Part shown: positions 42,256-57,346 of the stretch, piece after piece
Numbering within the stretch: position 1 is the stretch's first letter
Layout: each line of letters begins with the position of its first letter
DNA from: Bacteroidales bacterium
Lineage (GTDB): Bacteria > Bacteroidota > Bacteroidia > Bacteroidales > WCHB1-69
Assembly: GCA_017651425.1 (NCBI GenBank)
Contig: JAGCCZ010000001.1
Coordinates: forward strand, 6,222-70,221
Direction: 5' to 3'
DNA: 64,000 nucleotides
The notes under the pieces: model-generated
What the model was told of the DNA's origin: nothing
Seen by the model: the letters and a program-made list of their open reading frames with translations, nothing else
Database searches by the model: none
Position numbers and translations under genes: made by a program

Positions 42256-44304
42256 ATGGAAAATCCTAAACGATACACGGTTACCTCTGCCCTGCCCTAC
42301 GCCAACGGCCCCGTCCACATCGGCCACCTCGCCGGCGTCTATATCCCTGCCGACATCTACGCGCGCTACCTGCGCAACAACGGCAAGGAGGTGCTCTTCA
42401 TCGGCGGCTCCGACGAGCACGGCGTGCCCATCACCATCAAGGCCCGCAAGGAGGGCGTGACCCCGCAGGACATCGTGGACCGCTACCATAACATCATCAA
42501 GCAATCGTTCGAGGACCTCGGCATCTCCTTCGACATCTACTCCAGAACCTCCAACCCCACCCACCACGAGACCGCCGCCGCCTACTTCAAGAAACTGTAC
42601 GACGAGGGCAAGCTCATCGAGAAGACCTCTATGCAGTACTACGACGAGGAGGCCAAGCAGTTCCTCGCCGACCGCTACATCACCGGCACGTGCCCCCACT
42701 GTAAGAACGAGCACGCCTACGGCGACCAGTGCGAGGTGTGCGGCACCTCCCTCAACGCCACCGACCTCATCGACCCCAAGTCGGCACTCAGCGGCAACAC
42801 CCCTGTGCTGAAGGAGACCAAGCACTGGTATTTGCCTTTGGACCAGTACGATCCGTGGCTCCGCGAGTGGATCCTCCAGGGGCACAAGGACGACTGGCGC
42901 CCCACGGTGTATGGCCAGTGCAAGTCGTGGATTGACCAAGGGCTGCAGCCCCGCGCCGTCACCCGCGACCTCAACTGGGGCGTGAAAGTCCCCCTGGAAG
43001 ATGCCGATGGCAAGGTGCTCTATGTCTGGTTCGACGCTCCCATCGGCTACATCTCCGCCACCAAGGAGTGGGCCGAGGCGCACCACACCGACTGGCAGCC
43101 CTGGTGGAAAGACCAGGAGACCCAGCTGGTACACTTCATCGGCAAGGACAACATCGTGTTCCACTGCATCATATTTCCCTGTATGCTGAAGGCCGACGGC
43201 TCTTACATACTGCCCGACAACGTGCCCGCCAACGAGTTCCTGAACCTCGAGGGCGACAAGATCTCCACCTCCCGCAACTGGGCCGTCTGGGCGCACGAGT
43301 ATCTCCACGACTTCCCCGGCAAGCAGGACGTGCTGCGCTACACGCTCACCGCCATCGCGCCGGAGACCAAGGATGCCGACTTCACATGGGCCGACTACCA
43401 GGCGCGCAACAACAACGAGCTGCTGGCCATCTTCGGCAACTTCGTGAACCGCACCGTGGTGCTCACCCATAAATACTACGGAGGCATTGTGCCCGCCCCG
43501 GGCGAGTACTCCGACTACGAGAAGGAAATCGTGGCCAAGATGGCCGAGTTCCCCAAGACCATCGGCGACTCGATTGAGCATTACCGTTTCCGCGAGGCGC
43601 TGCAGGAGTTTATGAACCTGGCCCGCATCGGCAACAAGTACCTCACCGACACCGAGCCGTGGAAGAAGCAGAAGGAGAACCCCGAAGCCGTGAAGACCAT
43701 CCTGCACCTGTCGTTGCAGATCTGCGCCGCCCTTTCTGTGTTGTGCGAGCCGTTTTTGCCCTTCACTGCCAAGAAGTTGCAGCACATCCTCAACATCGAC
43801 AACAAGAACTGGCAGGATGGCGGCCGTGCCGACCTGCTGAAGGTGGGCGCGCAGCTCAACCCTGCCGAGTACCTTTTCGAGAAGATCGAGGACGCCGTCA
43901 TCGCCCAGCAGATCCAGAAGTTGGAGGACACCAAGAAGGCCAACGAGATTGCCACCGCCGAGGCCGTGGCTGCCAAGGAGGACGTCACCTTCGAGGAGTT
44001 CCAGAAGATGGACTTGCGGGTAGTCACCGTGTTGGAGGCCGAGAAGGTGGCCAAGACCAAGAAGCTGTTGAAGTTGAAGGTGAACACGGGCGTGGACGTG
44101 CGCGAGATCGTGTCGGGCATTGCCGAGTACTACGAGCCGCAGGACCTTGTGGGCAAGCAGGTGCTGATGCTCATCAACCTGGCCCCGAAGAACATCAAGG
44201 GTGTGGAGTCGCACGGAATGGTATTGATGGCCGAGCACGCCGACGGCACCCTGAGCCTGATGCAGCCGCAGAAGGCAGTGAAAGAGGGAAGTACTGTGAA
44301 ATAG
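42256..44304 (+). CDS. metG: Methionine--tRNA ligase
   Basis: HIGHLAG (HIGH) and KISTSRN (KMSKS-like) motifs, zinc knuckles CPHC/CEVC, and a C-terminal tRNA-binding domain. Confidence 0.95.
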
Positions 44305-44318
44305 ACAGGAACGCACCT

Positions 44319-45470
44319 ATGGCCGACGGATATTTGAATTTTGACGAATACATACGCCAAGGTGAACCGGCGCAGCGGGAACGGGCCGAAGCTTGGCGCG
44401 TGGCTATAGGATTGCAGGCCGTGGATGGGCTGAAGACCTCTGAGTATCTGCAAGAGACCGCCCGTCGCAACATCAAAGGGGAAATCACTATTGACGAGGC
44501 CCGTGAGATGGTGAAACAATACTATATCACCAAAACCACCCACGACGAGGATGATGGTGATAAAGCAGAAGCCGACAACGTTTCCGGAAACATTTCAAAG
44601 TTGCTTCAAACAGATACGTTTACCTATAGTGCAGCCGGGGTGGCAGCCATCCATCGGGCTATCTTCGAAGGCGTGTTCAAACACGCTGGACAATTCCGCG
44701 AATATGACATTTCAAAAAAGGAATGGGTGCTACGTGGTGACTCTGTGCTTTACGGACGTTGGCAGGATCTACGCATGGCAATAGACTACGACCTTGAACA
44801 AGAACGTCAGTTTGACTATTCAACATTGGATAAAGGACAGATAGTGGAGCATCTTGCCAAGTTTGTTGCGGGTTTATGGCAGATTCATCCGTTTCGGGAA
44901 GGCAACACTCGTACAACTGCCGTTTTCACCATCAAGTACCTGCGGGCTCAAGGTTTTCAGGTCAACAACGAAATGTTTGAGCAGCATTCGTGGTATTTCC
45001 GCAACGCACTGGTGCGCGCCAACTATCGGAATCTTGCAAAAGGGATAGGTTATGAACCGAAGTTCCTTGTGCGTTTCTTCCGTAATTTGCTGCTTGGCGA
45101 AAACAACATATTGAAGAACCGTTATATGGTAATTAATCCACCCGAAAAATGGAAGATGCCGGAAAGCGAACAAGTACCCGACAAGCACGGGATAAGCACA
45201 GGACAAGTACAGGACAAGCTGTACACCGACAACTATAATATTGTTGAGATCATTAAGGTTGTTGGGGGCAATATGTTGTCTGTAAAAGAGATGATGGCTG
45301 GTCTAAACCTCAAAGGAAGAGATAACTTTTTAAACCTTTATCTATCGCCCTCAATAGCAGAGGGGTATATCCGTCTGCTTTATCCCCAATCGCCCCGTCA
45401 CCCCCGCCAGAAGTATCTGCTGACCGTAAAGGGAATGGCCTTGTATAATGAGTTGATGAAAGGGGAATAG
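44319..45470 (+). CDS. Fic/DOC-family protein with an N-terminal VbhA-antitoxin-like helix and a C-terminal winged-helix-like tail
   Basis: The real start MADGYLNFDEY is at ATG 44319. The track ORF from 43659 runs out of frame through metG. The Fic motif region reads HPFREGNTRTTA. Confidence 0.8.
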   Translation: MADGYLNFDEYIRQGEPAQRERAEAWRVAIGLQAVDGLKTSEYLQETARRNIKGEITIDEAREMVKQYYITKTTHDEDDGDKAEADNVSGNISKLLQTDTFTYSAAGVAAIHRAIFEGVFKHAGQFREYDISKKEWVLRGDSVLYGRWQDLRMAIDYDLEQERQFDYSTLDKGQIVEHLAKFVAGLWQIHPFREGNTRTTAVFTIKYLRAQGFQVNNEMFEQHSWYFRNALVRANYRNLAKGIGYEPKFLVRFFRNLLLGENNILKNRYMVINPPEKWKMPESEQVPDKHGISTGQVQDKLYTDNYNIVEIIKVVGGNMLSVKEMMAGLNLKGRDNFLNLYLSPSIAEGYIRLLYPQSPRHPRQKYLLTVKGMALYNELMKGE

Positions 45471-45629: not shown

Positions 45630-47138
45630 ATGGCAAAGAAAACCAATACAGCAGACCTCGGATTTGAGGATAAGATATGGAAGGCGGCTAATATTCTTCG
45701 AGGTAATATTGCAGCTGCTGAATACAAGAATGTGGTGTTAGGTCTCATTTTCTTGAAATACATTTCCGATTGCTTTGATGTTAAGCACCAACAATTAGTG
45801 GACGAAGGTGATGGTTTTGAAGAAGATAAGGACGAATACATCTCTGAAAACATCTTTTATGTGCCTACTGATGCTCGTTGGAGCGTGATTGCTAATGCTG
45901 CTCACACCCCTGAAATTGGCAAAGTGATAGACAATGCCATGATGGAAATTGAGAAAGAGAATGACCGTCTAAAAGGCATTTTGCCCAAGAACTTTGCACG
46001 ACCAGAACTGGACAAACGTCGTTTGGGTGATGTGGTAGATCTCTTCACCAACACCATTGATCTTGGAAAAGAGGAAGAAAACAAAGATCTTTTAGGCCGC
46101 ACATACGAATATTGTCTCGCCAAGTTTGCATCGCTTGAAGGCAAGAATGCTGGTGAATTTTATACACCAAGTTGTATTGTACGAACAATCGTAGCTGTTC
46201 TTCAGCCTTTCAAAGGGCGTTGTTATGACCCGGCAATGGGAAGTGGCGGAATGTTTGTGCAAAGTGCAGAATTTGTACGCCATCATCAGGGTGACATTAA
46301 GAATCTTTCTATTTTTGGTCAAGAGTTTGTTGCCGAGACGCGCAAGATGGCCATGATGAACCTCGCTATCCGCGGCATTGAGGCCAATTTGGGCGAAAAG
46401 AACGCAGATACTTTTTTCGATGACCAGCATCCGACTTTGAAAGCCGATTTTGTGATGGCCAATCCTCCATTCAATATGAGTGATTGGGGTGCAGATAAGC
46501 TGCAAGATGATGTGCGTTGGAAATACGGCATTCCTCCGGCGGGCAATGCCAACTTTGCTTGGATGGAACACATGATCAGCCATCTCTCTCCGACAGGTCG
46601 GATAGGTTTGGTATTGGCCAACGGTTCTTTGAGCAGCCAGACGGGTGGTGAAGGAGAGATTCGTAAAAACATCTTGCAGGCCGACTTGGTGGAAGGCATT
46701 GTGGCGCTTCCCAGCCAGTTGTTCTACAGTACAGGCATTCCTGTTTGTCTTTGGTTCTTATGCAGGCAAAAAGCACAACCCGGCAAGGTACTTTTCGTTG
46801 ATGCCCGCAATATGGGCAAGATGGTGACACGCAAGCTGCGTGAGCTGACCGAAGCCGATATTGAGCGCATTGCCCAGACCTTTACCGATTACCGGAATGG
46901 CACACTCACTGATGAAAAAGGTTATTGCGCCGTTAAGACACTTGATGAGGTGGCTGCGCAAGACCATATCCTAACTCCCGGCCGTTATGTGGGCATTGCC
47001 GAGCAGGAGGATGATGGGGAACCTTTTGAGGAGAAGATGAATCGCCTCACCACCGAATTGAGCGGACTTTTCCAAGAAAGCCATAGATTGGAAGAGGAAA
47101 TAAAGAAACAGTTGGGGAGCATTGGTTTTTTTGTTTAA
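45630..47138 (+). CDS. hsdM: Type I restriction-modification system, N6-adenine DNA methyltransferase subunit
   Basis: HsdM N-terminal domain (LRGNIAAAEYKNVVLGLIFLKY), then GEFYTP, DPAMGSGGM and MANPPF. Confidence 0.93.
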   Translation: MAKKTNTADLGFEDKIWKAANILRGNIAAAEYKNVVLGLIFLKYISDCFDVKHQQLVDEGDGFEEDKDEYISENIFYVPTDARWSVIANAAHTPEIGKVIDNAMMEIEKENDRLKGILPKNFARPELDKRRLGDVVDLFTNTIDLGKEEENKDLLGRTYEYCLAKFASLEGKNAGEFYTPSCIVRTIVAVLQPFKGRCYDPAMGSGGMFVQSAEFVRHHQGDIKNLSIFGQEFVAETRKMAMMNLAIRGIEANLGEKNADTFFDDQHPTLKADFVMANPPFNMSDWGADKLQDDVRWKYGIPPAGNANFAWMEHMISHLSPTGRIGLVLANGSLSSQTGGEGEIRKNILQADLVEGIVALPSQLFYSTGIPVCLWFLCRQKAQPGKVLFVDARNMGKMVTRKLRELTEADIERIAQTFTDYRNGTLTDEKGYCAVKTLDEVAAQDHILTPGRYVGIAEQEDDGEPFEEKMNRLTTELSGLFQESHRLEEEIKKQLGSIGFFV

Positions 47139-47150
47139 TTTCAAATCTAA

Positions 47151-47987
47151 ATGATTCCTAATATGAAAGATATGTTTTATCCAAATATCGAATTTCTGAA
47201 TATTGATGATTTAAATGTCTTTTTGGGAGACATGCCTGTTTTGTATAAATATATGCCGTTGGAGAACACTTTAAATACTTTGAAAAATAAAACAATATGG
47301 TTAGCTGACCCTAAAACATGGGAAGATCCTTTTGAAAAGAGATTCCTCAATGCTAAATATAAGAATTCAAAGGGGGTAGAAATGGTATTTCCGTATTCGG
47401 GAAAAACATTTGCAACATGTTTAACACGCAATCCATCCAGTGAAGCTCAATGGAATGTATACTCAAGAAATGAAATTGGAATCAAATTTAAAATAAGTAC
47501 AAAAGTACTTCTTGAACAATTGAATAAATTCTCACAAAATCATCCTAAATACAAGGTGTATTTTGGAAAGGTTGAGTATCACAAAAGAGAAGAAATAGAA
47601 CAAACACAACTATCTAAATTGACATTTGAAGCAGAAAGAAAAGGAGTTAAAATAAACAAGAGTTTGCAAAATAAAGACTTTTGCGCTCGTTTGTTTCTTT
47701 TAAAAAGACGTGATTTTGAATATGAAGACGAGGTTCGTATAATTGTTTTTAAGGATATTAAGAATACTGCGGCAGGAATCAGCTTTGATTATACTTGTTC
47801 TAACAGTATGATCTTTCCTCAATTAACAATTTCACCTCGTGTAAAAAACAATGTTGAAAACATGCTAAAAGAATACCTTATCCAATTCGGCATGAATCCT
47901 CTTGTAGACAGCCTCGGGAGAAAACAACATCGCGTTGTTAAAAGCCATCTTTTTGATGACGAAAACGAGGTTACAATAAGCATATGA
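47151..47987 (+). CDS. DUF2971-family protein embedded in the R-M operon
   Basis: VLYKYMPLENTLNTLKNKTIWLADPKTWEDPFE, AQWNVYS..IGIKF and LLKRRDFEYEDEVRII match my recollection of the DUF2971 signature. It starts 12 nt after the hsdM stop. Confidence 0.7.
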   Translation: MIPNMKDMFYPNIEFLNIDDLNVFLGDMPVLYKYMPLENTLNTLKNKTIWLADPKTWEDPFEKRFLNAKYKNSKGVEMVFPYSGKTFATCLTRNPSSEAQWNVYSRNEIGIKFKISTKVLLEQLNKFSQNHPKYKVYFGKVEYHKREEIEQTQLSKLTFEAERKGVKINKSLQNKDFCARLFLLKRRDFEYEDEVRIIVFKDIKNTAAGISFDYTCSNSMIFPQLTISPRVKNNVENMLKEYLIQFGMNPLVDSLGRKQHRVVKSHLFDDENEVTISI

Positions 47988-48037
47988 CATTAACTTGGAT
48001 AAAAGATATGTTAGGAAATAGACTTTATTATTAAAAT

Positions 48038-48466
48038 ATGGAAACGATAGTACAATGGACAACAATCTTAAGCCCGATTATTGCGGTTATTATAGCAATA
48101 TTGATGGTTAGAAGCAGCAATAGAGATACTGCCAAACAAATTGAGAGCATTAAGGAAAGTACCTCTCGTCAGATTGAAAGTATCAAGAACTTATCCAGAC
48201 AAATGATAGATTCTTCCATTAAACAAGTGGAATTAGAAATAGAAAAGACCCTTATTCTAGCACAACAAGCACAACAAGAATGGGAAGGTGTTGAAGAGAT
48301 TAATCGTTCTGGATTATCTCACATGGTATCTTTTAGAAATGAAGCTATGAGACAGTATCACGAGGAAAAGCCTAAAAGAGATCATCAGTTATATTCCTCA
48401 TCTATTAAGAATCTTCAGGCTATTAAGAAAGACCTGGAAGCTCATAAAAAAGAATTGAACTCATAA
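48038..48466 (+). CDS. Small protein with one N-terminal TM helix and a coiled-coil tail
   Basis: 142 aa. The TM segment is WTTILSPIIAVIIAILMV. It has heptad-like repeats KQIESIKESTSRQIESIKNLSRQ. Its stop TAA 48464-48466 is 1 nt before the hsdS ATG. Confidence 0.6.
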   Translation: METIVQWTTILSPIIAVIIAILMVRSSNRDTAKQIESIKESTSRQIESIKNLSRQMIDSSIKQVELEIEKTLILAQQAQQEWEGVEEINRSGLSHMVSFRNEAMRQYHEEKPKRDHQLYSSSIKNLQAIKKDLEAHKKELNS

Positions 48467-48467
48467 T

Positions 48468-49631
48468 ATGGAAGAGTGGAAAGAATATAGGTTGGGAGAT
48501 ATAGCGGTTGTAACCATGGGACAATCACCAAATTCCTCTTATTATAACAATGTAGGAGATGGAGTGCCATTTCTGCAAGGCAACAGAACTTTTGGAATGA
48601 AATATCCAACTTTTGATACGTTCACTACTTCTGCCACAAAATACGCCGAAGGAAACGACGTAATTATGAGTGTACGAGCACCTGTAGGGGATGTGAATAT
48701 TACTCCAATAAGAATGTGCTTGGGGCGTGGACTATGTGGGTTGCGTTTAAACAATGGTAATCAGGAGTTTTTGTATTATTTGATGCGTTATTACGCTAAT
48801 AATCTGATTAACAAAGAATCAGGAACGGTTTTTGGGTCTATCAATCGCAATGATATTGCAAATCTTATAGTGAGAGTCCCGTCATTTGAACTTCAGAAAA
48901 AAATAGCCTATATATTATCTTCCTTTGATGACAAAATCGAAGTAAATCAGCGTATAAATGATAATTTAGAGCAACAAGCCACAGCTTTATTCAAGTATTG
49001 GTTTGTGGATTTCGGGCCATTCAAGGATGGCGAGTTTGAGGAAAGTGTATTGGGAATGATACCTAAAGGGTGGAGAGTGGGAAAACTATTAGATGTTGCA
49101 AATATCACGATGGGAACTTCACCTGTAGGTTCAAGTTATAATGTGACAGGAGAAGGAGATGTTTTTTATCAAGGTCGAGCAGAATTTGGTTTTAGATTTC
49201 CAAAGAGAAATATGTACACTACAGAGGCCAAGAGATTTGCTGATATTGATAGCGTTTTGTTAAGTGTCCGTGCTCCTGTTGGAGATATTAATGTTGCAGA
49301 TGAAAGATGTTGTATTGGTCGAGGGTTAGCTTCGATTCAATCGAGGGATGGGAACAACTCTTACATTCTATATTTGATGAAAAGTCTGTATCCACAATTC
49401 GAAAAGTATAATAGCGAAGGCACTGTTTTTGGGTGTATTAATAAGAAAGCATTGGAACAATTAGCTGTGGTGACTCCTCCGAATGAAACGATAAGTAGAT
49501 TTGATAAAATATGCAGTGAAATAGATGGCCAAATTAAAATACTTGATCAAGAAACCCGCCGACTTGCCACCCTTCGGGACACATTATTGCCGAGATTAAT
49601 GTCAGGAAAGTTAAAAGTAAATGAATTATAA
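48468..49631 (+). CDS. hsdS: Type I restriction-modification system, specificity subunit
   Basis: Two target-recognition domains are separated by conserved helices (LEQQATALFKYWFVDF and LATLRDTLLPRLMSGKL). Confidence 0.9.
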   Translation: MEEWKEYRLGDIAVVTMGQSPNSSYYNNVGDGVPFLQGNRTFGMKYPTFDTFTTSATKYAEGNDVIMSVRAPVGDVNITPIRMCLGRGLCGLRLNNGNQEFLYYLMRYYANNLINKESGTVFGSINRNDIANLIVRVPSFELQKKIAYILSSFDDKIEVNQRINDNLEQQATALFKYWFVDFGPFKDGEFEESVLGMIPKGWRVGKLLDVANITMGTSPVGSSYNVTGEGDVFYQGRAEFGFRFPKRNMYTTEAKRFADIDSVLLSVRAPVGDINVADERCCIGRGLASIQSRDGNNSYILYLMKSLYPQFEKYNSEGTVFGCINKKALEQLAVVTPPNETISRFDKICSEIDGQIKILDQETRRLATLRDTLLPRLMSGKLKVNEL

Positions 49632-49639
49632 GTACTACT

Positions 49640-51475
49640 ATGAGAATTAAGAAAGTAATTATTGACAATTTTAAATCCATTGATCATATTGATTTAGATT
49701 TTGACAAGGTCGGGGATAGTTATACGAAGATTTTTGTAGGTATAAATGAGTCTGGTAAAAGTAATATATTAGAGGCATTATCATATTTCAAGGTTCCGGA
49801 TAATAATGTTTCTTTCGATAGTTACTGTAACCAAAAGATTGAAGACAGGGATATATGCAGTATCCTCTTCGAATTAGAATTTGAGCCTAATACGCCATTT
49901 GTCCTTAATGAAAAAAAAGGAAAAGGACAAGGTTTAAATCTCTCTCTTTCTAATATTACCAAGAAAGTGTATCTTTCCAAGGGTGCAAATAGGTTTGATC
50001 ACTCCTATAGTTTTGATATACAATTATTAGATGCTAATCTTTTTATAAAAAAAACACCAACACCAAATCAATATGGCATTGGTCGTGGTGTTAACGATAG
50101 TATTGTGCCTGAATCAGAAAAAGATGATAATTCCGAACCGCTCACAATTAAGCATGTTGAACATATTTATAATGACACCATAATAAAGTATATTGAAAAT
50201 AATGAACCTTCAGTTTCCGTGTGGAAAGCGTCATCGGAATATTTATTCTCAAATGTTAATTTGAATGCTTTCGCGCAAAATATCGATTCAAATAAACCAT
50301 TAAAAAATATTTTCCATTTAAGTGGTTTTAAAGATCAACCATCTATTGTCGAAGCAATTAGCAAGGTTAGAAACCCTAAAAACAGAAGTATTCTTTCAAG
50401 TAGATTAAATGAATCCTTAAACAATTATATAAACAAGGTCTGGAGTAATAAAATAAACATTGTTATTGAGATAACTGAAACTGGTGCATTGTCTTTTCTT
50501 ATTAAAGATCAGGGTGCAGAAAATGAGCACAACCGCTTTGATATAACGGAAAGAAGCCAAGGTGCTCAACAATTCTTGTCACTTATTTTATCATTATCCC
50601 TTGAAGCCGAAAATCAAGAAAGAAAAAATGAATTGATCTTGATAGATGAACCTGAAACACACTTGCATCCTTCTGGTATTAGGGATTTAGGACGAGAATT
50701 ACTAAAAGTTGGAAAAGAAAATTATGTTTTCTTAGCAACACATTCTCCTTTCATCATTGATAAAAGTCATAAGGAGAGACATTATATTGTGAAAAAGGAC
50801 AAGAAATCTATCACAGAAATAAAAAGAATAAGAGAAAGTGACAACATTATTGATGATGAAGTGCTTAATGAGGCATTTGGAATCAATGTATATCAAGATC
50901 TATTAAATCCTCATAGCGTTTTGGTTGAAGGAGCATCTGATAAAGTTATCTTGCAAAAAGTTTTTTCTCTATTGGGCCGGAAAGATATTGGAATCACTAA
51001 CGGACATGGAACAAATATTGATACATTGGCTTCGAAAATGAACTTTGATAATATTTCTGTTTTAGTTGTTACTGACGATGACAAAGATGGTAAAAAATAT
51101 AAAGAAAAAATACTCAAAATAGGTGGCGTGTTTAATGAGAATAATGTTTTCACTATTCGTGATCTGGAAGGTAGAATTGTTGATCAAGGAACCATTGAGG
51201 ATACGTTAGGTATAGGATACGTTAAGTCTCAATTTCAAGAATTCTATAGGAATAGATTTGATGAGGAATTGTCGGATTTTGATCTATTAGATGATAGAAC
51301 TGTTATTTCACAAATCGAAGAATTCTTGAAAGGTAAAAGAAAATTCAGCAGTTGGGATATGGATGCTTTTAAGAAGCTTGTTTCTGATAATTTCAATCCC
51401 GGTAAATCTGCTTTAAACAAACAATTTGGAATTTTGAAGGGTTTAGCGGAAAAAATGATTGAAAAGTTGAATTAA
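49640..51475 (+). CDS. OLD-family-like ABC-type ATPase fused to a TOPRIM nuclease domain
   Basis: Walker A GINESGKSN, signature-like RSQGAQQF, Walker B LILIDEPETHLHP and LATHSPF. The TOPRIM motifs are VLVEGASDKV and VLVVTDDDKDGKK. Confidence 0.8.
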   Translation: MRIKKVIIDNFKSIDHIDLDFDKVGDSYTKIFVGINESGKSNILEALSYFKVPDNNVSFDSYCNQKIEDRDICSILFELEFEPNTPFVLNEKKGKGQGLNLSLSNITKKVYLSKGANRFDHSYSFDIQLLDANLFIKKTPTPNQYGIGRGVNDSIVPESEKDDNSEPLTIKHVEHIYNDTIIKYIENNEPSVSVWKASSEYLFSNVNLNAFAQNIDSNKPLKNIFHLSGFKDQPSIVEAISKVRNPKNRSILSSRLNESLNNYINKVWSNKINIVIEITETGALSFLIKDQGAENEHNRFDITERSQGAQQFLSLILSLSLEAENQERKNELILIDEPETHLHPSGIRDLGRELLKVGKENYVFLATHSPFIIDKSHKERHYIVKKDKKSITEIKRIRESDNIIDDEVLNEAFGINVYQDLLNPHSVLVEGASDKVILQKVFSLLGRKDIGITNGHGTNIDTLASKMNFDNISVLVVTDDDKDGKKYKEKILKIGGVFNENNVFTIRDLEGRIVDQGTIEDTLGIGYVKSQFQEFYRNRFDEELSDFDLLDDRTVISQIEEFLKGKRKFSSWDMDAFKKLVSDNFNPGKSALNKQFGILKGLAEKMIEKLN

Positions 51476-51489
51476 TTTACTTCAGCAAT

Positions 51490-54400
51490 ATGTCAGACTT
51501 CAACGAAGATCATTACGAGCAGACGCTGATTGAGCTGTTTAAAGAGCGATTGGACTACAAGTATCTCAACGGCTACGAGGCACAAGAGGCATTTGAGGAC
51601 AAGGACTACTATTGTCCTGTCTATCTCGAACGGCTGCAGATGAAACTGCGCGACCTCAATCCCAAACTGCCGCAATCGGCACTCGATGAAGCGGAGCGGA
51701 AGTTGCTTCATATTGAAGCGGGCAATATGGTTCAGAACAACGAGCTCTTCATGGACTACCTGCAACATGGCGTGGAGGTGACCTTTCATGATGGTCATGA
51801 GTTGAAGAATGACATTGTTTATCTGGTTGATTATAAAGATATCTTAGAGAATGACTTCCTACTGGCGAACCAATGGACATTCGTGGAGAAGTCTAAAAAA
51901 CGCGCCGATTTAATCCTTTTCCTTAACGGTCTGCCTGTAGTGTTGATGGAACTGAAATCGCCTTCGCGCGAAGAAACCGATGCCAGCGCCGCTTACCGCC
52001 AACTCAAAAACTATATGAAGGAGATTCCTACCATGTTCACCTACAATGTATTCTGTGTAATGAGCGATATGGCGGAATCAAAAGCAGGCACCATCACCTC
52101 CAACGAGGATCGTTTTATGCAATGGAAATCAAAAGATGGCGTCTATGAAAGCACAGAGGTGGTGGATTACGATGTGTTCTTCGAGGGAATGTTCCGAAAG
52201 GAGAGGCTGTTGGATATTATCCGCAATTTCGTCTGCTACAGCAAGGACGAGGGAAAGGACAACAAGATATTGGCAGGTTACCATCAGTATTTTGCGGTGA
52301 AGAAAGCGGTGGAGCGTACCAAATTGGCGGTCACTGGCGATGGAAAGATCGGCGTATTTTGGCACACCCAGGGCAGCGGCAAGAGTCTCTCGATGGTGTT
52401 TTATGCCCATCTGCTGCAATCCACTATTTCGCAACCAACCATTGTGGTCATTACCGACCGTAACGACCTTGACAATCAACTTTATAGTCAGTTTGCCAAG
52501 TGCAAGGATTTTCTGCGACAAGTGCCAGTGCAAGCCATTTCTCGTCAGCATTTGCGCGAACTACTTGAGGGCCGCACAGCCAATGGCATCATATTTACCA
52601 CAATGCAGAAGTTCGAGGAATACGATGCGCCATTGTCCACCCGCCGAAACATCATTGTGATGAGCGATGAAGCCCATCGCGGGCAGTACGGTTTTGAGGA
52701 GAAGATTGACCCGGCGACAGGAAAAGTCAGCGTCGGCACCGCCCGTCTCATCCACGATTCGCTGCCTCACGCCTCGTTCATTGGCTTCACCGGCACCCCT
52801 ATCGCCAAGACAGACCGAAACACCATCGAGGTGTTTGGTGACTGCATTGATGTGTATGATATGACGCAGAGCGTTTTGGACCACGCCACCGTACCAGTCT
52901 ATTACGAAAGCCGCGTCATCAATCTCAAACTTGACGACGAGACGCTCCAACTTATCGACAAAGAATTTGAACTTTTGGAAGCGGAAGGTGCCGATGCACA
53001 GCAAGTTGAAAAGAGCAAGCGAGACCTCTCGCATCTTGAAGAGCTGCTTGGAGCTGATTCCACCATAGATTCGTTGGTACAAGACATTCTTAACCACTAT
53101 GAAAACTATCGTGAGCAAGAACTGACCGGCAAAGCGATGATTGTGGCATACAGCCGCCCGATTGCTATCAAGATATACAAGCGAATACTTGAATTGAGGC
53201 CTGAATGGACGGAGAAGGTGAAATGCGTAATGTCAGGCGACAACAATGACCCCGAGGAATGGCACAACATCATTGGCAACAAGCAGTACAAACAAGAACT
53301 GGCGAAGAAGTTCAAGGATGACAATGATCCGATGAAGATTGCCATAGTGGTTGATATGTGGCTCACGGGGTTCGATGTTCCATCCTTGGCTACAATGTAC
53401 GTTTTCAAGCCACTGAATGGGCACAACCTGATGCAGGCCATTGCCCGTGTAAACCGCGTGTTCAATGGGAAAGAAGGCGGTCTGGTGGTCGATTACATCG
53501 GCATCGCACAAGCTTTGAAGTCGGCTATGAAATTTTACAGCGCTCACGACCGTCAAAAGTTCGGTGATCCGGACATCAAGACCACCGCCTTGAAAAAATT
53601 CCAGGAGGAGTTGGAAATCTGTCGCGATCTGATGCACGGTTTCGATTATTCAAAGTTCAAAGATTCTTCAGACCTGAAACGGGCTGAACTCATCAAAGGC
53701 GGCACCAACTTCCTGCTGTCCAAAGATATGCAGGAGAAGAAATCGGACTATATGAAACACGCCACCTTGCTGCACCAGTCCATCACACTGTGTCGCAGCC
53801 TGCTCAATGAAAACCAACGTTGGGAAAGTGCCTTTTTTGAGACGGTGCGTGTGATGATTCTGCGTTTGAGCGGCAAAGGAAAGATAACCAAGAAGGAAAT
53901 CGACGAACGCATCCGTGAACTGCTGAAACAGAGCGTAAAGAGCGAAGGCGTCATCAACCTGTTCCAAGACGCTGGCAAAGAGTTTTCATTAAACGATCCT
54001 GCTTTCTTGGAAGAGTTGACCAAGATGAAGGAGAAGAACATCTCCATCCAAATTTTGGAAAACCTGTTGAAAGACAAGGTGAAAGCGTTCCAACACAAGA
54101 ATCTCGTGCAAAGTGAGAAGTTTTCTGAGCTGCTGAACCATGCGTTAAGCAACTATCTGAAAGGGATGTTGACCAATGAAGAGGTGATTCAGGAATTGCT
54201 CAAGTTGGCATCGCAAATCAAGGAAACCGAGCAACAGGGCAATGAGCTTGGTTTGACCGATGAGGAAAAGGCCTTTTATGATGCGCTGACGCGTCCACAA
54301 GCGGTGCGAGACATTTATGAGAACGACGAATTGGTGGCTATGACCAAGGAACTGACCGAAACACTCCGCAAGAATCGCACCATCGACTGGCAACACAAAG

Positions 54401-54645
54401 AGTCTGCCCGTGCGGGCATGCGCAAGATGGTGAAACGACTGTTGAAGAAATACAAATATCCGCCCGAGGAGGCTGAGCACGCCATGGACATTGTGCTGAA
54501 GCAGTGTGAGGAGTGGGCGGACGAAGATGAATACACTGTGACAGAACCGAAAGTCATACGGTTTTATTCTCAAAAAGAGGAAGAATCTAGGAATATTGCT
54601 GCTGAAGACGAATTACCGTACAACACTGAATTTATTGAATCATAA
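51490..54645 (+). CDS. hsdR: Type I restriction endonuclease, R subunit
   Basis: 1051 aa with an N-terminal nuclease region (ADLILFLNGLPVVLMELK), then TQGSGKS and the DEAH box SDEAHRGQ. Confidence 0.93.
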   Translation: MSDFNEDHYEQTLIELFKERLDYKYLNGYEAQEAFEDKDYYCPVYLERLQMKLRDLNPKLPQSALDEAERKLLHIEAGNMVQNNELFMDYLQHGVEVTFHDGHELKNDIVYLVDYKDILENDFLLANQWTFVEKSKKRADLILFLNGLPVVLMELKSPSREETDASAAYRQLKNYMKEIPTMFTYNVFCVMSDMAESKAGTITSNEDRFMQWKSKDGVYESTEVVDYDVFFEGMFRKERLLDIIRNFVCYSKDEGKDNKILAGYHQYFAVKKAVERTKLAVTGDGKIGVFWHTQGSGKSLSMVFYAHLLQSTISQPTIVVITDRNDLDNQLYSQFAKCKDFLRQVPVQAISRQHLRELLEGRTANGIIFTTMQKFEEYDAPLSTRRNIIVMSDEAHRGQYGFEEKIDPATGKVSVGTARLIHDSLPHASFIGFTGTPIAKTDRNTIEVFGDCIDVYDMTQSVLDHATVPVYYESRVINLKLDDETLQLIDKEFELLEAEGADAQQVEKSKRDLSHLEELLGADSTIDSLVQDILNHYENYREQELTGKAMIVAYSRPIAIKIYKRILELRPEWTEKVKCVMSGDNNDPEEWHNIIGNKQYKQELAKKFKDDNDPMKIAIVVDMWLTGFDVPSLATMYVFKPLNGHNLMQAIARVNRVFNGKEGGLVVDYIGIAQALKSAMKFYSAHDRQKFGDPDIKTTALKKFQEELEICRDLMHGFDYSKFKDSSDLKRAELIKGGTNFLLSKDMQEKKSDYMKHATLLHQSITLCRSLLNENQRWESAFFETVRVMILRLSGKGKITKKEIDERIRELLKQSVKSEGVINLFQDAGKEFSLNDPAFLEELTKMKEKNISIQILENLLKDKVKAFQHKNLVQSEKFSELLNHALSNYLKGMLTNEEVIQELLKLASQIKETEQQGNELGLTDEEKAFYDALTRPQAVRDIYENDELVAMTKELTETLRKNRTIDWQHKESARAGMRKMVKRLLKKYKYPPEEAEHAMDIVLKQCEEWADEDEYTVTEPKVIRFYSQKEEESRNIAAEDELPYNTEFIES

Positions 54646-55282: not shown

Positions 55283-55332
55283 CCTTCCGCGGCGAGCCAT
55301 CCACAACCTCTTGGCGGGCCATCCCCGCGCCG
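55283..55332 (+). repeat. GC-rich ~50-bp repeat, direct partner at 57295-57346
   Basis: CCTTCCGCGGCGAGCCATCCACAACCTCTTGGCGGGCCATCCCCGCGCCG compared with CCCTTCCGCGGAGAACATGTCCACACCTTTGTGGCGGGCCATCCCCGCGCCG. The core also resembles 26039-26061 (reverse complement) and 28895-28917. Confidence 0.8.
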
Positions 55333-55671
55333 CGGCGGATGCCCGGGACACCGCATACCTACCGGGCCACCCACCCCCGCACGCCGCCGGCGTGCGACAT
55401 CCGCCCGCACATCCTCAACGCTACCAACCCCCGCAGCCCGATGGGCTGCGACGACAGCGCACATAATTGCAAACATGTTGATTTTCCCCACGGACCGTGT
55501 CCCGGAGGGAGACAATCTTAGTAAGGAGCACGGCAACTCGACTGCAACCCGCGACGTAGTTTTCAAAACCATCTTCGAGCAGGCGGAGAGTTTTAAGAAG
55601 AATAGCGATCTTGGGGATGATCCCGAGATGATAAAAAATTTCAACATACACTTTCTGTTATTAAAAAATTG

Positions 55672-55679
55672 TATCTTTG
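55672..55679 (+). promoter_or_regulatory. -7 box TATCTTTG upstream of the toxin gene
   Basis: Lies 22 nt upstream of ATG 55702. Confidence 0.55.
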
Positions 55680-55701
55680 CAAACTAAAAAAACATTCGCA
55701 G

Positions 55702-56043
55702 ATGGATTTGACTTTTGCAGATAAGAATCTAAAGAAATGTGCTTTGGATCAACGTAAATGCCAGAAGGAGATGGGAAAGCAACGTGCCGAGTTGTATCTT
55801 AGAAGAATCGCAGATCTTGATGCAGCATACACTCTCGAGGACGTCAGGTATTTGCCAGGGCATTACCATGAGCTGACACAGGATAAAAAGGGGAAATGGG
55901 CTTGTGATTTAGACCAACCTTATCGACTGGTTTTCAAACCCCATGAAGACCCTATTCCAGAGGATGAAAATCACAAATACATTTGGGCTGAAATATTAGG
56001 AGTGGAGATTATTGAAATAGTTAATTACCATAAGGAAAAGTAA
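55702..56043 (+). CDS. HigB-like (plasmid-maintenance killer, RelE/ParE superfamily) toxin
   Basis: 113 aa: MDLTFADKNLKKC...RRIADLDAAYTLEDV...HELTQDKKGKWACDLDQPYRLVF matches the killer-protein family pattern. Confidence 0.72.
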   Translation: MDLTFADKNLKKCALDQRKCQKEMGKQRAELYLRRIADLDAAYTLEDVRYLPGHYHELTQDKKGKWACDLDQPYRLVFKPHEDPIPEDENHKYIWAEILGVEIIEIVNYHKEK

Positions 56044-56055
56044 AATAATAAAGAT

Positions 56056-57165
56056 ATGGCACAAAAGAAAAAATTCAGAGCAGTTTACGCATTTCATCCT
56101 GGAACCACATTGAGGGAGAAACTGGACGAAATGGGAATGAGCGTGAAAGAATTCGCAGTGAGAACCTCCAAACCTGAGAAAACCATCAATGCAGTGTTGA
56201 TGGGTGATAGCTCTTTGACACCAGACATGGCTGTTGCTTTTGAACAAATCACTATGATTCCCGCCCACATGTGGCTAAACCTCCAGCGGAATTACGATGA
56301 ATATATGGCGCGTCAAAAGCGGGAGTCGATTCTCAACGATGAAGACACCATCGCTTGGGCAAGGCGCTTCCCATATTCTATTATGGCAAATTTAGGTTGG
56401 GTTCCTGCGACACGCAGCATTAGCGAAAAAATCACAAATCTTTTTTCGTTTTTTAAAATCACTACGGCAAATGCCTGGACAAATTTATTCCTAAACCAAG
56501 CTTTGAAGTCTGAATTTAGACTTTCTTTGTCGGGCACTAAAGATCCTTACGCCATCTCAGCGTGGTTAAGACAAGGGGAAATCTTAGCCGATAATACGAG
56601 CACTAATAACAGCTATTCGGCAGAACGCTTGAAAGAGGAACTGCCTCTGATGTTGAAATTGGTGCAATCACAACCTGATAATTTTGATGCACAATTAAAG
56701 GAGTTATGTTCCAATGCGGGAGTGAAGTTGATCTATATCAGTCATATCACTCATGCTCCCGTGAATGGATGTGCTCGATGGATTGACAACACGCCCTGTA
56801 TTCAGATGACAGACCGTCAAAAGCGTAATGATGTTTTTTGGTTTTCTTTCTTTCACGAAATAGGACATATTCTCTTACATGGGAAAAAAGATGTTTTTTT
56901 AGAGGACACAGAATATCATGATCAACAAAAAGAAAAAGAAATGGCAGCCGATCGATTCGCTTCGGACATTCTTCTTGACAAGAAAAATGAGCAAGCTATC
57001 ATTAGAGAGATTCACGAAAAGACCGTTCAAGCCGATCTAATAAGTGAATTGGCAGACAAATACAAAACACATCCGGCGATTATTATTGGCCGTCTTCAGC
57101 ATCTTCAGATATTGCCTCAGAACTCGGCTTTGAACAGTTTGAAGGCCACTGTTCGCTTCAATTAA
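56056..57165 (+). CDS. HigA/VapI-type HTH antitoxin domain fused to an ImmA/IrrE (COG2856) zinc-metallopeptidase domain
   Basis: The N-terminus has FHPGTTLREKLDEMGMSVKEFA...INAVLMG...WLNLQRNYD. The C-terminus has the HEXXH motif FFHEIGHILLH. Confidence 0.78.
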   Translation: MAQKKKFRAVYAFHPGTTLREKLDEMGMSVKEFAVRTSKPEKTINAVLMGDSSLTPDMAVAFEQITMIPAHMWLNLQRNYDEYMARQKRESILNDEDTIAWARRFPYSIMANLGWVPATRSISEKITNLFSFFKITTANAWTNLFLNQALKSEFRLSLSGTKDPYAISAWLRQGEILADNTSTNNSYSAERLKEELPLMLKLVQSQPDNFDAQLKELCSNAGVKLIYISHITHAPVNGCARWIDNTPCIQMTDRQKRNDVFWFSFFHEIGHILLHGKKDVFLEDTEYHDQQKEKEMAADRFASDILLDKKNEQAIIREIHEKTVQADLISELADKYKTHPAIIIGRLQHLQILPQNSALNSLKATVRFN

Positions 57166-57294: not shown

Positions 57295-57346
57295 CCCTTC
57301 CGCGGAGAACATGTCCACACCTTTGTGGCGGGCCATCCCCGCGCCG
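57295..57346 (+). repeat. Second copy of the GC-rich ~50-bp repeat
   Basis: See 55283-55332. Confidence 0.8.

What the first reader, a model, noticed from the sequence alone, without database searches (positions are those of the whole stretch)
49640..51475. OLD-like ABC-ATPase/TOPRIM nuclease in the PrrC position (between hsdS and hsdR), without a helicase partner
Seen: the ATPase motifs are Walker A GINESGKSN, Walker B LILIDEPETHLHP and LATHSPF. The TOPRIM acidic motifs are VLVEGASDK and VVTDDDKDGKK. The protein is 611 aa. Established: this domain pair defines OLD-family nucleases. Examples are class 1 OLD, Gabija GajA and the AriA/AriB pair of PARIS, which responds to an anti-restriction protein. 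GajA normally has an adjacent UvrD-like GajB, and no such gene is adjacent here. PrrC also has an ABC-like ATPase head and occupies the same hsdS-hsdR slot. Inference: this may be a functional analogue of PrrC in which a TOPRIM nuclease replaces the anticodon-nuclease domain. It could act as a fail-safe that fires when the R-M complex is inhibited.
Basis: partly seen in the sequence, partly recalled or inferred. Interest (0 to 1): 0.75.

Follow-up and report, generated by a model that had tools for sequence, protein, structure and literature searches.

The report
OLD-family nuclease inside a restriction operon
A complete type I restriction-modification operon carries a single-chain OLD-type ATPase-nuclease gene between its specificity and restriction genes; it is a new example of the already described habit of defence genes nesting inside restriction systems, not a new kind of system.

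Summary
ORF 49640-51475 (+) encodes a 611-aa protein with all five quoted motifs. It has an ABC ATPase domain (Pfam AAA_15, residues 1-373) and an OLD-like TOPRIM domain (residues 427-481, above Pfam's cut-off). It lies 8 nt after hsdS and 14 nt before hsdR in an intact hsdM-DUF2971-orf142-hsdS-OLD-hsdR operon. No helicase, retron or split AriA/AriB partner is present. The best structural match is Thermus scotoductus class 1 OLD. Sequence profiles place it about equally far from P2 Old, GajA and retron effectors, so it is a distinct single-chain subfamily centred on Bacteroidales.

Of 16 close homologues (51-77% identity; 15 at 58% or more), 6 sit between hsdS and hsdR. Two follow a fused methylase-specificity enzyme, one ends a BREX operon, and 7 have no abutting R-M gene. 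Across related loci OLD identity is uncoupled from HsdM/HsdR identity, and the gene's GC content is far lower than that of its neighbours. Its hypervariable insert follows OLD phylogeny, not the host system.

The gene is therefore best read as mobile, autonomous defence cargo in a known R-M insertion hotspot. A PrrC-like dependence on the R-M complex is not supported. The guardian idea is already published (Payne et al. 2024). Verdict: new member of a known kind, moderate-to-low interest.

The parts
49640..51475 (+). OLD-family nuclease gene (611 aa). Domains from the AlphaFold2 model: ABC ATPase N-lobe with Walker A (residues 1-70); hypervariable beta-rich insert (71-165); helical insert (166-270); ATPase C-lobe with signature SQGAQ, Walker B and H-loop (271-400); conserved linker modelled with low confidence (401-424); TOPRIM (425-524); C-terminal helical region (525-611).
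45630..47138 (+). hsdM, the type I R-M methyltransferase subunit (HsdM_N + N6_Mtase). It is the first gene of the tightly spaced run from hsdM to hsdR.
   Evidence: It is 91-94% identical to HsdM of L001, L002 and L087.
47151..47987 (+). Embedded DUF2971 gene, matching the PADLOC defence candidate PDC-S31. It is second cargo in the same operon.
   Evidence: PDC-S31, E 6e-42. GC 0.317.
48038..48466 (+). orf142, a small protein with an apparent N-terminal hydrophobic (membrane-type) segment, read by eye from the translation. It ends 1 nt before hsdS.
   Evidence: A homologue of 71% identity sits at the same position in L001.
48468..49631 (+). hsdS, the specificity subunit, with two Methylase_S target-recognition repeats.
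   Evidence: It is only 33-49% identical in otherwise near-identical operons.
51490..54645 (+). hsdR, the restriction/translocase subunit, with the full domain set.
   Evidence: It is 86-91% identical in L001, L002 and L087.

Best explanation
The gene encodes an autonomous, single-chain OLD-family defence nuclease with class-1-like architecture. It has been captured as mobile cargo in the hsdS-hsdR junction of a type I R-M operon and is probably co-transcribed with it.

Inferred mechanism, by homology with TsOLD, P2 Old, Vc OLD, GajA and HEC-04: the ABC ATPase head with its helical insert forms an oligomer that keeps the TOPRIM two-metal nuclease restrained. A phage-derived cue is sensed through the fast-evolving beta-rich insert of the ATPase (residues 71-165). 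This releases nicking or degradation of nucleic acid, which stops the phage or the infected cell.

The nesting gives shared regulation and shared horizontal transfer with the R-M system. It adds a second layer of defence behind restriction, but the protein does not need the Hsd subunits to work.

What is shown: the domain architecture, the conservation of catalytic residues, the operon position, the recurrent but non-obligatory R-M/BREX linkage, and the uncoupled evolution of OLD and Hsd genes. What is inferred: oligomerisation, the trigger, the substrate and the abortive outcome.
For: Architecture and intact catalytic motifs.

Family placement. The best PADLOC model is Old at 104 bits, ahead of AriAB (83.8), the retron ATPase-Toprim model (80.2) and GajA (67). 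The best Foldseek match in the PDB is TsOLD 6p74 at E 3.8e-16, against about 3e-12 for the next hits. hhalign against P2 Old gives 96% probability.

No conserved partner. Close homologues have variable neighbours: type I R-M, a fused N6_Mtase/Eco57I/Methylase_S enzyme, BREX, an AAA_21+RloB pair, a 650-680-aa plus 97-aa pair, and other defence-island genes.

Uncoupling from Hsd. OLD is 74-77% identical where HsdM/HsdR are 86-94%, and 58% identical where HsdM/HsdR are 29-35%.

GC mosaic. OLD has GC 0.312 (GC3 0.25), against 0.459 for hsdM and 0.478 for hsdR (GC3 0.60).

Insert 1 is hypervariable, with mean column identity 0.29 against 0.74-0.80 in the catalytic domains. Its similarity follows OLD phylogeny, not the host system.

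Tight co-directional spacing of 8 and 14 nt.

Literature. The hsdS-hsdR junction is a hotspot for embedded defence genes such as DarTG2, TgvAB and PrrC. The embedded ATPase-TOPRIM fusion HEC-04 defends and needs its Walker A and metal-site residues. PARIS works without any R-M in the cell.
Against: The enrichment next to methylation-based systems is high. Nine of 16 close homologues abut one, nearly all co-directional with gaps under 25 nt. That may be more than a passive genomic sink would give, and no baseline for other defence genes was computed here. Nothing tested here shows activity, a trigger or independence from Hsd proteins. Sequence profiles do not place the protein cleanly in class 1: the A2 profile hits GajA at 6e-13 and TsOLD at 1.3e-7. 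The context sample is small and comes mostly from metagenome assemblies.
Confidence: 0.6

Rival explanations
1. PARIS-like anti-anti-restriction sensor. The OLD ATPase directly binds phage anti-restriction proteins (DNA mimics of the Ocr/ArdA type, which inhibit type I R-M and BREX) and then fires its TOPRIM nuclease. It would not need the R-M proteins physically, but its usefulness beside them would explain the enrichment next to type I, fused R-M-S and BREX systems.
For: The subfamily recurs next to three different methylation-based systems. A hypervariable insert could serve as a sensor surface. There are precedents: Ocr triggers PARIS and Gabija, both of which carry OLD-type ATPase-TOPRIM modules.
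Against: Seven of 16 close homologues have no abutting R-M or BREX gene. PADLOC scores AriAB below Old, there is no DUF4435-type TOPRIM hit, and no AriA structure appears among the top 50 Foldseek matches. No trigger could be tested.
Confidence: 0.25
2. PrrC-type latent guard. The OLD protein is bound and silenced by the HsdMSR complex and is released when a phage inhibitor disables the complex.
For: The genomic slot is the same as for prrC, and the gene is tightly packed into the operon. The N-terminal head is of the ABC type, as in PrrC. Six of 16 close homologues sit between hsdS and hsdR.
Against: The same clade sits in type I systems with only 29-35% identical HsdM/HsdR, next to non-type-I systems, and alone. 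OLD and Hsd identities are uncoupled, and the insert does not converge by host system. Payne et al. describe PrrC as found almost exclusively embedded in type I R-M, and this family is not.
Confidence: 0.08
3. Accessory exonuclease of the restriction pathway. After HsdR (or a fused R-M enzyme) makes rare double-strand cuts, OLD degrades the linearised foreign DNA 5' to 3', as P2 Old and TsOLD do in vitro.
For: Class 1 OLDs are nonspecific 5'-3' exonucleases in vitro. The gene is co-expressed with a nuclease that cuts rarely.
Against: This does not explain the BREX-linked copies or the copies with no R-M nearby. It gives no reason for a hypervariable ATPase insert. No example is known in the literature searched.
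Confidence: 0.05

Closest known systems
Class 1 OLD nucleases (Thermus scotoductus OLD, PDB 6p74; P2 Old; Vibrio cholerae Vc OLD)
   Same: It is a single polypeptide of ABC ATPase with inserted domains plus a C-terminal TOPRIM, with no dedicated partner gene. It gives the best Foldseek match (E 3.8e-16), the best single-sequence PDB match and the best PADLOC model (Old). hhalign against P2 Old gives 96% probability. The modelled TOPRIM core (426-505) is compact.
   Different: Sequence similarity is remote: 17% identity to TsOLD in the structural alignment, and the P2 Old alignment covers only residues 277-461. The protein is about 80 aa longer than TsOLD, with a large beta-rich insert. Reviews describe class 1 genes as lying away from other defence genes, whereas this subfamily is often nested in R-M or BREX operons. 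Only one decent homologue (34%) was found in viral contigs.
HEC-04 and HEC-01, ABC ATPase-TOPRIM systems embedded in Hma (Payne et al. 2024, bioRxiv 10.1101/2024.01.29.577857)
   Same: The concept and the domain pair are the same: an ABC ATPase-TOPRIM fusion nested co-directionally inside a methylation-based defence operon. HEC-04 is experimentally defensive and needs its Walker A and TOPRIM metal-site residues. HEC-01A models hit this protein's ATPase at about 70 bits.
   Different: The host system is type I R-M rather than Hma. HEC-04 is not among the 25 best PADLOC hits, so this is probably a different ATPase lineage. No experiment exists for this subfamily.
PrrC anticodon nuclease of the EcoprrI locus
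   Same: It occupies the same hsdS-hsdR slot and has an ABC-type ATPase head.
   Different: The effector is a TOPRIM domain, not an anticodon-nuclease domain. PrrC is described as almost exclusively type I-embedded, while this family is embedded in only a minority to about a third of cases. Nothing here shows masking by the R-M complex.
PARIS (AriA/AriB, class 4 OLD) and Gabija GajA (class 2 OLD)
   Same: All belong to the OLD superfamily of ATPase plus TOPRIM. Both PARIS and Gabija are triggered by the anti-restriction protein Ocr. The A2 profile hits GajA at E 6e-13 across the ATPase C-lobe and TOPRIM.
   Different: There is no adjacent GajB helicase. There is no split AriB and no DUF4435-type TOPRIM hit. 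AriAB scores below Old, and no AriA structure is in the Foldseek top 50.
RloA/RloB-type restriction-linked ATPase plus TOPRIM-like pairs
   Same: They are an ATPase plus TOPRIM-like module. That RloB is named after restriction-linked ORFs is my own recollection and was not checked here.
   Different: They are split two-gene systems. In L090 and L095 an AAA_21+RloB pair sits immediately upstream of an OLD homologue, so the two are distinct modules.

Membership tests
OLD family (ABC ATPase + TOPRIM nuclease) | N-terminal ABC-type ATPase with Walker A, signature motif, Walker B and H-loop | tested here: met
   GINESGKSN, SQGAQ, LILIDEPE and ATHSP are present. K40, S306/G308, D336/E337 and H368 are invariant in 48 homologues. 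AAA_15 covers 1-373 at E 4.9e-27. The model matches Rad50, SMC and OLD heads.
OLD family (ABC ATPase + TOPRIM nuclease) | C-terminal TOPRIM domain with a conserved Glu and a DxD acidic cluster | tested here: met
   PF20469 OLD-like_TOPRIM covers 427-481 at 26.4 bits, above the 23.2 cut-off. E430 and D479/D480/D481 are invariant. They align to the GajA and P2 Old TOPRIM glutamate motif.
Class 1 OLD | Stand-alone gene with variable neighbourhood and no conserved partner | tested here: met
   At least seven different neighbourhoods were seen among 16 close homologues, and no neighbouring gene is shared by all.
Class 1 OLD | No alpha-helical insertion inside the TOPRIM domain, unlike classes 2 to 5 | tested here: inconclusive
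   The AlphaFold2 secondary structure shows an uninterrupted beta-alpha TOPRIM core over 426-505, with the extra helices all C-terminal (519-610). TsOLD is the best structural match. No residue-level superposition was made.
Class 1 OLD | Not proximal to other defence genes, as worded in the 2023 review (PMC10568477) | tested here: not met
   The gene is nested in a type I R-M operon together with DUF2971/PDC-S31. Nine of 16 close homologues abut R-M or BREX genes.
Class 2 OLD / Gabija GajA | Adjacent UvrD/PcrA/Rep-like helicase GajB | tested here: not met
   The flanking genes are hsdS and hsdR. No such helicase abuts the gene in any close homologue.
Class 3 OLD / retron effector | Adjacent reverse transcriptase and msr-msd non-coding RNA | tested here: not met
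   No Rfam family reaches its threshold anywhere in the window. The neighbours are hsd genes. NCBIfam retron_eff_Eco8 scores 64 bits against a cut-off of 250.
Class 4 OLD / PARIS | Split AriA ATPase plus AriB TOPRIM, or an AriAB fusion of that lineage | tested here: not met
   The protein is a single chain. Its only TOPRIM-type Pfam hit is OLD-like_TOPRIM. The AriAB model scores 83.8 bits, below Old at 104. The two AriA models that score well have the same lengths and matched coordinates as the generic AAA_15 and AAA_21 Pfam profiles, so they are probably uninformative. No AriA chain is in the Foldseek top 50.
PrrC-type R-M guard | Embedded between hsdS and hsdR of a type I R-M locus | tested here: met
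PrrC-type R-M guard | C-terminal anticodon-nuclease domain | tested here: not met
   The C-terminal half is a TOPRIM domain plus a helical region. No PrrC model is among the best 25 PADLOC hits.
PrrC-type R-M guard | Activity masked by, and dependent on, the R-M complex | not testable with these tools
   Only indirect evidence is available, and it points against. The clade occurs without R-M and with unrelated R-M systems, and OLD identity is uncoupled from Hsd identity.
Defence genes embedded in defence systems (Payne et al. 2024) | Co-directional gene located between the core genes of a BREX, DISARM, Hma or type I R-M system | tested here: met
   All six genes are on the + strand, with gaps of 1-50 nt from hsdM to hsdR. 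The concept is described.

The most novel reading that the evidence does not exclude
This roughly 610-aa OLD subfamily, centred on Bacteroidales, may be a dedicated single-chain guardian of methylation-based immunity. It would have been recruited repeatedly to type I R-M, fused R-M-S enzymes and BREX because it senses inhibitors of those systems, either directly as PARIS does or through the methyltransferase-specificity core. It would then fire its TOPRIM nuclease. That would define an R-M-linked OLD class beyond the current classes 1 to 5.
Probability: 0.2. Interest if true: 0.6.

Novelty: new member of a known kind. Interest (0 to 1): 0.35.

Why it matters
Class 1-type OLD nucleases are the least understood OLD class, and their triggers are largely unknown. 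A subfamily that repeatedly nests in type I R-M, fused R-M-S and BREX operons would be a convenient natural system for two questions. Do single-chain OLDs act as second-line defences behind restriction? What do their variable ATPase inserts sense? It also adds a Bacteroidales, gut- or rumen-type example to the catalogue of embedded defence genes, in an operon that carries two further uncharacterised cargo genes. It does not reveal a new mechanism or architecture.

Tried and rejected
- The C-terminal 210 aa alone were searched against PADLOC to type the TOPRIM domain. No meaningful hit came back, so the nuclease half could not be assigned to a class by that route.
- The sigma-70 promoter and intrinsic terminator scan of 44.5-56.5 kb gave counts no higher than shuffled sequence. 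It is not suited to Bacteroidota, so co-transcription rests on gene spacing only.
- Comparison with E. coli YbjD, reported as a class 1 OLD, aligned only the first 52 residues and was uninformative.
- The viral contig scan found only one decent homologue (34%). The idea that this is a prophage-borne Old of the P2 type was dropped.
- A retron or tRNA-linked context was excluded.
- A possible conserved partner between OLD and hsdR in distant type I-embedded loci turned out to be unrelated cargo: Fic, AAA_14-DUF4143 and a YhgA-like transposase.
- A test of whether the variable insert converges among copies in the same kind of host system was negative.
- Literature searches for OLD family together with hsd gene names found no paper describing this specific arrangement. 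One search call failed on term length.
- The neighbour-joining tree is crude. It was used only to show that contexts are interspersed, not for class assignment.
Full report
**1. The observation**

The window has an ATG-to-stop ORF at 49640-51475 on the + strand, encoding 611 aa.
- GINESGKSN, residues 34-42
- LILIDEPETHLHP, 332-344
- LATHSPF, 365-371
- VLVEGASDK, 427-435
- VVTDDDKDGKK, 476-486

Pfam gives AAA_15 over residues 1-373 (E 4.9e-27), AAA_21, and OLD-like_TOPRIM (PF20469) over 427-481 at 26.4 bits, above the curated 23.2-bit cut-off.

All lie on the + strand:

| Gene | Coordinates | Gap to next gene |
|---|---|---|
| hsdM | 45630-47138 | 12 nt |
| DUF2971 | 47151-47987 | 50 nt |
| orf142 | 48038-48466 | 1 nt |
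| hsdS (two Methylase_S repeats) | 48468-49631 | 8 nt |
| OLD | 49640-51475 | 14 nt |
| hsdR (full domain set) | 51490-54645 | - |

The R-M system looks intact. In an alignment of 48 homologues of 58-84% identity, K40, S306/G308, D336/E337, H368, E430 and D479-D481 are invariant. The gene is therefore under purifying selection on both catalytic centres.

**2. What the protein is**

PADLOC models rank as follows: Old 104 bits, AriAB 83.8, retron ATPase-Toprim_I-B 80.2, GajA about 67. Two models labelled AriA also score well. They have the same lengths and matched coordinates as the generic Pfam AAA_15 and AAA_21 profiles, so they are probably uninformative. NCBIfam gives only sub-threshold hits: retron Eco8 effector at 64 of 250 bits, PtuA, and a restriction-system-associated AAA ATPase.

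Against PDB sequences, the single protein hits T. scotoductus class 1 OLD best (2.9e-7), then GajA. A profile of the 48 homologues reverses the order, with GajA at 6e-13 and TsOLD at 1.3e-7. hhalign against P2 Old gives 96% probability over residues 277-461. E. coli YbjD aligns only at the Walker A region.

An AlphaFold2 model has mean pLDDT 83. It shows:
- an ABC head carrying a beta-rich insert (about 72-157) and a helical insert (about 170-267);
- a compact beta-alpha TOPRIM core (426-505);
- a C-terminal helical region.

Foldseek against the PDB puts TsOLD first at E 3.8e-16. That is four orders of magnitude ahead of retron/Septu PtuA and GajA. No AriA chain appears in the top 50.

No helicase, reverse transcriptase, non-coding RNA or AriB-type gene is adjacent. 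The protein is therefore an OLD-family nuclease with class-1-like architecture. It is a remote relative of every characterised member. The subfamily is sizeable, with 404 representatives at 50% clustering at E<=1e-30, and almost all full-length listed members are about 600-650-aa single chains. Close members are mostly Bacteroidales. Only one decent homologue (34%) was found in viral contigs.

**3. Genomic context here**

The operon lies between metG (GC 0.605) and a higB-like toxin gene followed by an HTH/M78-peptidase gene. A Fic/DOC gene sits just upstream of hsdM.

GC content is strongly mosaic:

| Gene | GC | GC3 |
|---|---|---|
| hsdM | 0.459 | 0.463 |
| DUF2971 | 0.317 | 0.272 |
| orf142 | 0.347 | 0.308 |
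| hsdS | 0.376 | 0.304 |
| OLD | 0.312 | 0.250 |
| hsdR | 0.478 | 0.603 |

The central cassette therefore has a different history from the hsdM and hsdR genes that frame it.

**4. Context of relatives**

I examined 16 dereplicated close homologues (51-77% identity; all but L007 are at 58% or more):

| Context | Loci |
|---|---|
| Between hsdS and hsdR of a type I system (6) | window, L001, L002, P0017/L087-89, L006, P0117/L097-98 |
| 22-23 nt after a 1303-1310-aa N6_Mtase/Eco57I/Methylase_S fusion (2) | P0049, P0031 |
| Last gene of a BREX-type operon, after brxL (1) | P0069 |
| Directly after an AAA_21+RloB pair (2) | P0078, P0079 |
| After a 650-680-aa plus 97-aa gene pair (3) | L003, L004, P0033 |
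| Island with an N6_N4 methylase, DUF4062 and GIY-YIG genes (1) | L005 |
| No defence-related gene next to it (1) | L007 |

In P0017 a GmrSD gene also lies between OLD and hsdR, and the operon carries an integrase with several hsdS copies.

Across 86 dereplicated homologues down to about 25% identity, from many phyla, home-built profiles gave these counts:
- 16 have type I R-M genes within 10 kb, and 9 of these are flanked on both sides;
- 2 follow R-M-S-type fusions;
- 1 is with BREX;
- 5 abut an N6_N4 methylase, and 7 more have one within 10 kb;
- 55 have none.

On a rough neighbour-joining tree the R-M-linked copies are interspersed with unlinked ones. In distant type I-embedded loci the other embedded genes are unrelated cargo such as Fic, RhuM-Fic, AAA_14-DUF4143 and a YhgA-like transposase. 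There is no conserved partner. The R-M linkage is therefore recurrent and probably more than chance, but it is not obligatory. I did not compute a baseline for other defence genes.

**5. Tests bearing on dependence on the R-M complex**

Three results argue against a co-evolved OLD-Hsd interface of the PrrC kind.
- Between the window and L001, L002 and L087, HsdM and HsdR are 86-94% identical but OLD is only 74-77% identical. Between the window and L006 and L097, OLD is 58% identical while HsdM and HsdR are 29-35%. OLD has moved between unrelated type I families and has been swapped within one family.
- The beta-rich insert (71-165) is hypervariable. Its mean pairwise column identity is 0.29, against 0.74-0.80 in the catalytic domains and 0.90 in the linker.
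- Similarity in that insert follows OLD phylogeny, not the host system. The insert of a fusion-enzyme-linked copy (L099) is 78-81% identical to those of R-M-free copies (L003, L004, L093). Type I-embedded copies from different branches share only 26-28%.

These results fit an autonomous, mobile module whose variable surface more probably faces phage factors.

**6. Mechanism**

The best-supported reading is an autonomous OLD-type second-line defence nuclease. It would be co-expressed with, and co-transferred with, the R-M operon. By homology, it would use ATP-controlled oligomerisation to gate a two-metal TOPRIM nuclease. The trigger and substrate are inferred, not shown.

The rivals are:
- direct sensing of anti-restriction proteins, as in PARIS, which needs no R-M in the cell;
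- PrrC-like masking by HsdMSR;
- a role as accessory exonuclease of restriction.

I rate these 0.25, 0.08 and 0.05, against 0.6 for plain autonomy.

**7. Comparison with what is known, and novelty**

The hsdS-hsdR junction is already described as a hotspot for embedded defence genes. Examples are PrrC, DarTG2 and an ATPase-containing gene pair, and TgvAB.

Payne et al. 2024 introduced 'guilt by embedding'. They showed that ABC ATPases with TOPRIM partners or fusions (HEC-01, HEC-04) are common cargo in Hma systems, and they validated HEC-04. They reported thousands of genes embedded in BREX, DISARM and type I R-M. They also explicitly proposed PrrC-like back-up and Ocr-triggered roles for embedded ABC-ATPase systems. 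The DUF2971 gene in this same operon matches one of their candidates, PDC-S31.

What is mildly new here is that a class-1-like OLD subfamily is frequently nested in R-M and BREX operons. One review describes class 1 genes as not lying near other defence genes, and another describes them simply as stand-alone genes in variable neighbourhoods.

**Verdict.** This is a new member of a known kind, with interest 0.35.

Noticed in passing
window 47151-47987 (+): A DUF2971 gene is embedded between hsdM and hsdS. It matches the PADLOC defence candidate PDC-S31 (E 6e-42) and has very low GC (0.317). It is a second, uncharacterised cargo gene in the same operon and is absent from the otherwise near-identical operons L001, L002 and L087.
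   Followed up: partly
window 48038-48466 (+): orf142 has an N-terminal hydrophobic stretch (WTTILSPIIAVIIAILMV) that looks like a membrane segment, followed by a charged region that looks like a coiled coil; both were read by eye and not predicted. It has no Pfam family. It ends 1 nt before hsdS, and a 71% identical copy sits at the same place in L001 (8375-8803).
   Followed up: partly
window about 44400-45470 (+), within ORF 43659-45470: A Fic/DOC-family gene (Fic plus Fic-like_C) lies just upstream of hsdM. Fic genes also turn up as embedded cargo in distant type I R-M loci that carry an OLD homologue (L035, L072).
   Followed up: partly
window 55300-55332 and 57314-57346; genes 55669-56043 and 56056-57165 (+): Two 33-nt direct repeats (88% identical) bracket a HigB-like toxin gene and an HTH/M78-peptidase gene. 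The latter matches PADLOC PD-Lambda-2_B (E 3e-34), RmrA models and the HigA N-terminus. This looks like a separately inserted cassette downstream of hsdR.
   Followed up: no
window 45630-54645: There is a sharp GC mosaic inside one operon. hsdM is 0.459 and hsdR 0.478, against 0.31-0.38 for the four central genes, while the neighbouring housekeeping gene metG is 0.605 (GC3 0.90). The whole island is foreign to the host, and the middle of the operon is foreign to its own ends.
   Followed up: yes
window 50840-50911 (OLD residues 401-424): The ATPase-TOPRIM linker (NIIDDEVLNEAFGINVYQDLLNPH) is the most conserved segment of the protein (0.90 column identity). It is also the only part modelled with pLDDT of about 50. 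It could be a conserved flexible regulatory or interaction element.
   Followed up: no
L003 1625-3938; L004 442-2755; L093 5353-7588: A pair of genes of 650-680 aa and 97 aa recurs immediately upstream of OLD homologues in three loci without R-M. The only Pfam signal for the larger gene is a sub-threshold PHP hit in L003. It could be another defence cassette or an alternative partner.
   Followed up: partly
L087 4576-15092; L088; L089: The type I operon holding the 74% identical OLD homologue also has a tyrosine recombinase with several hsdS copies, a likely phase-variable arrangement. A GmrSD-type (type IV restriction) gene lies between OLD and hsdR, so three defence modules sit in one operon.
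   Followed up: no
L090 6093-9827; L095 6155-9830: An AAA_21 ATPase plus RloB (TOPRIM-like) pair lies directly upstream of an OLD homologue, with a 4-nt overlap in L095. Two ATPase/TOPRIM-type modules are therefore in tandem.
   Followed up: no
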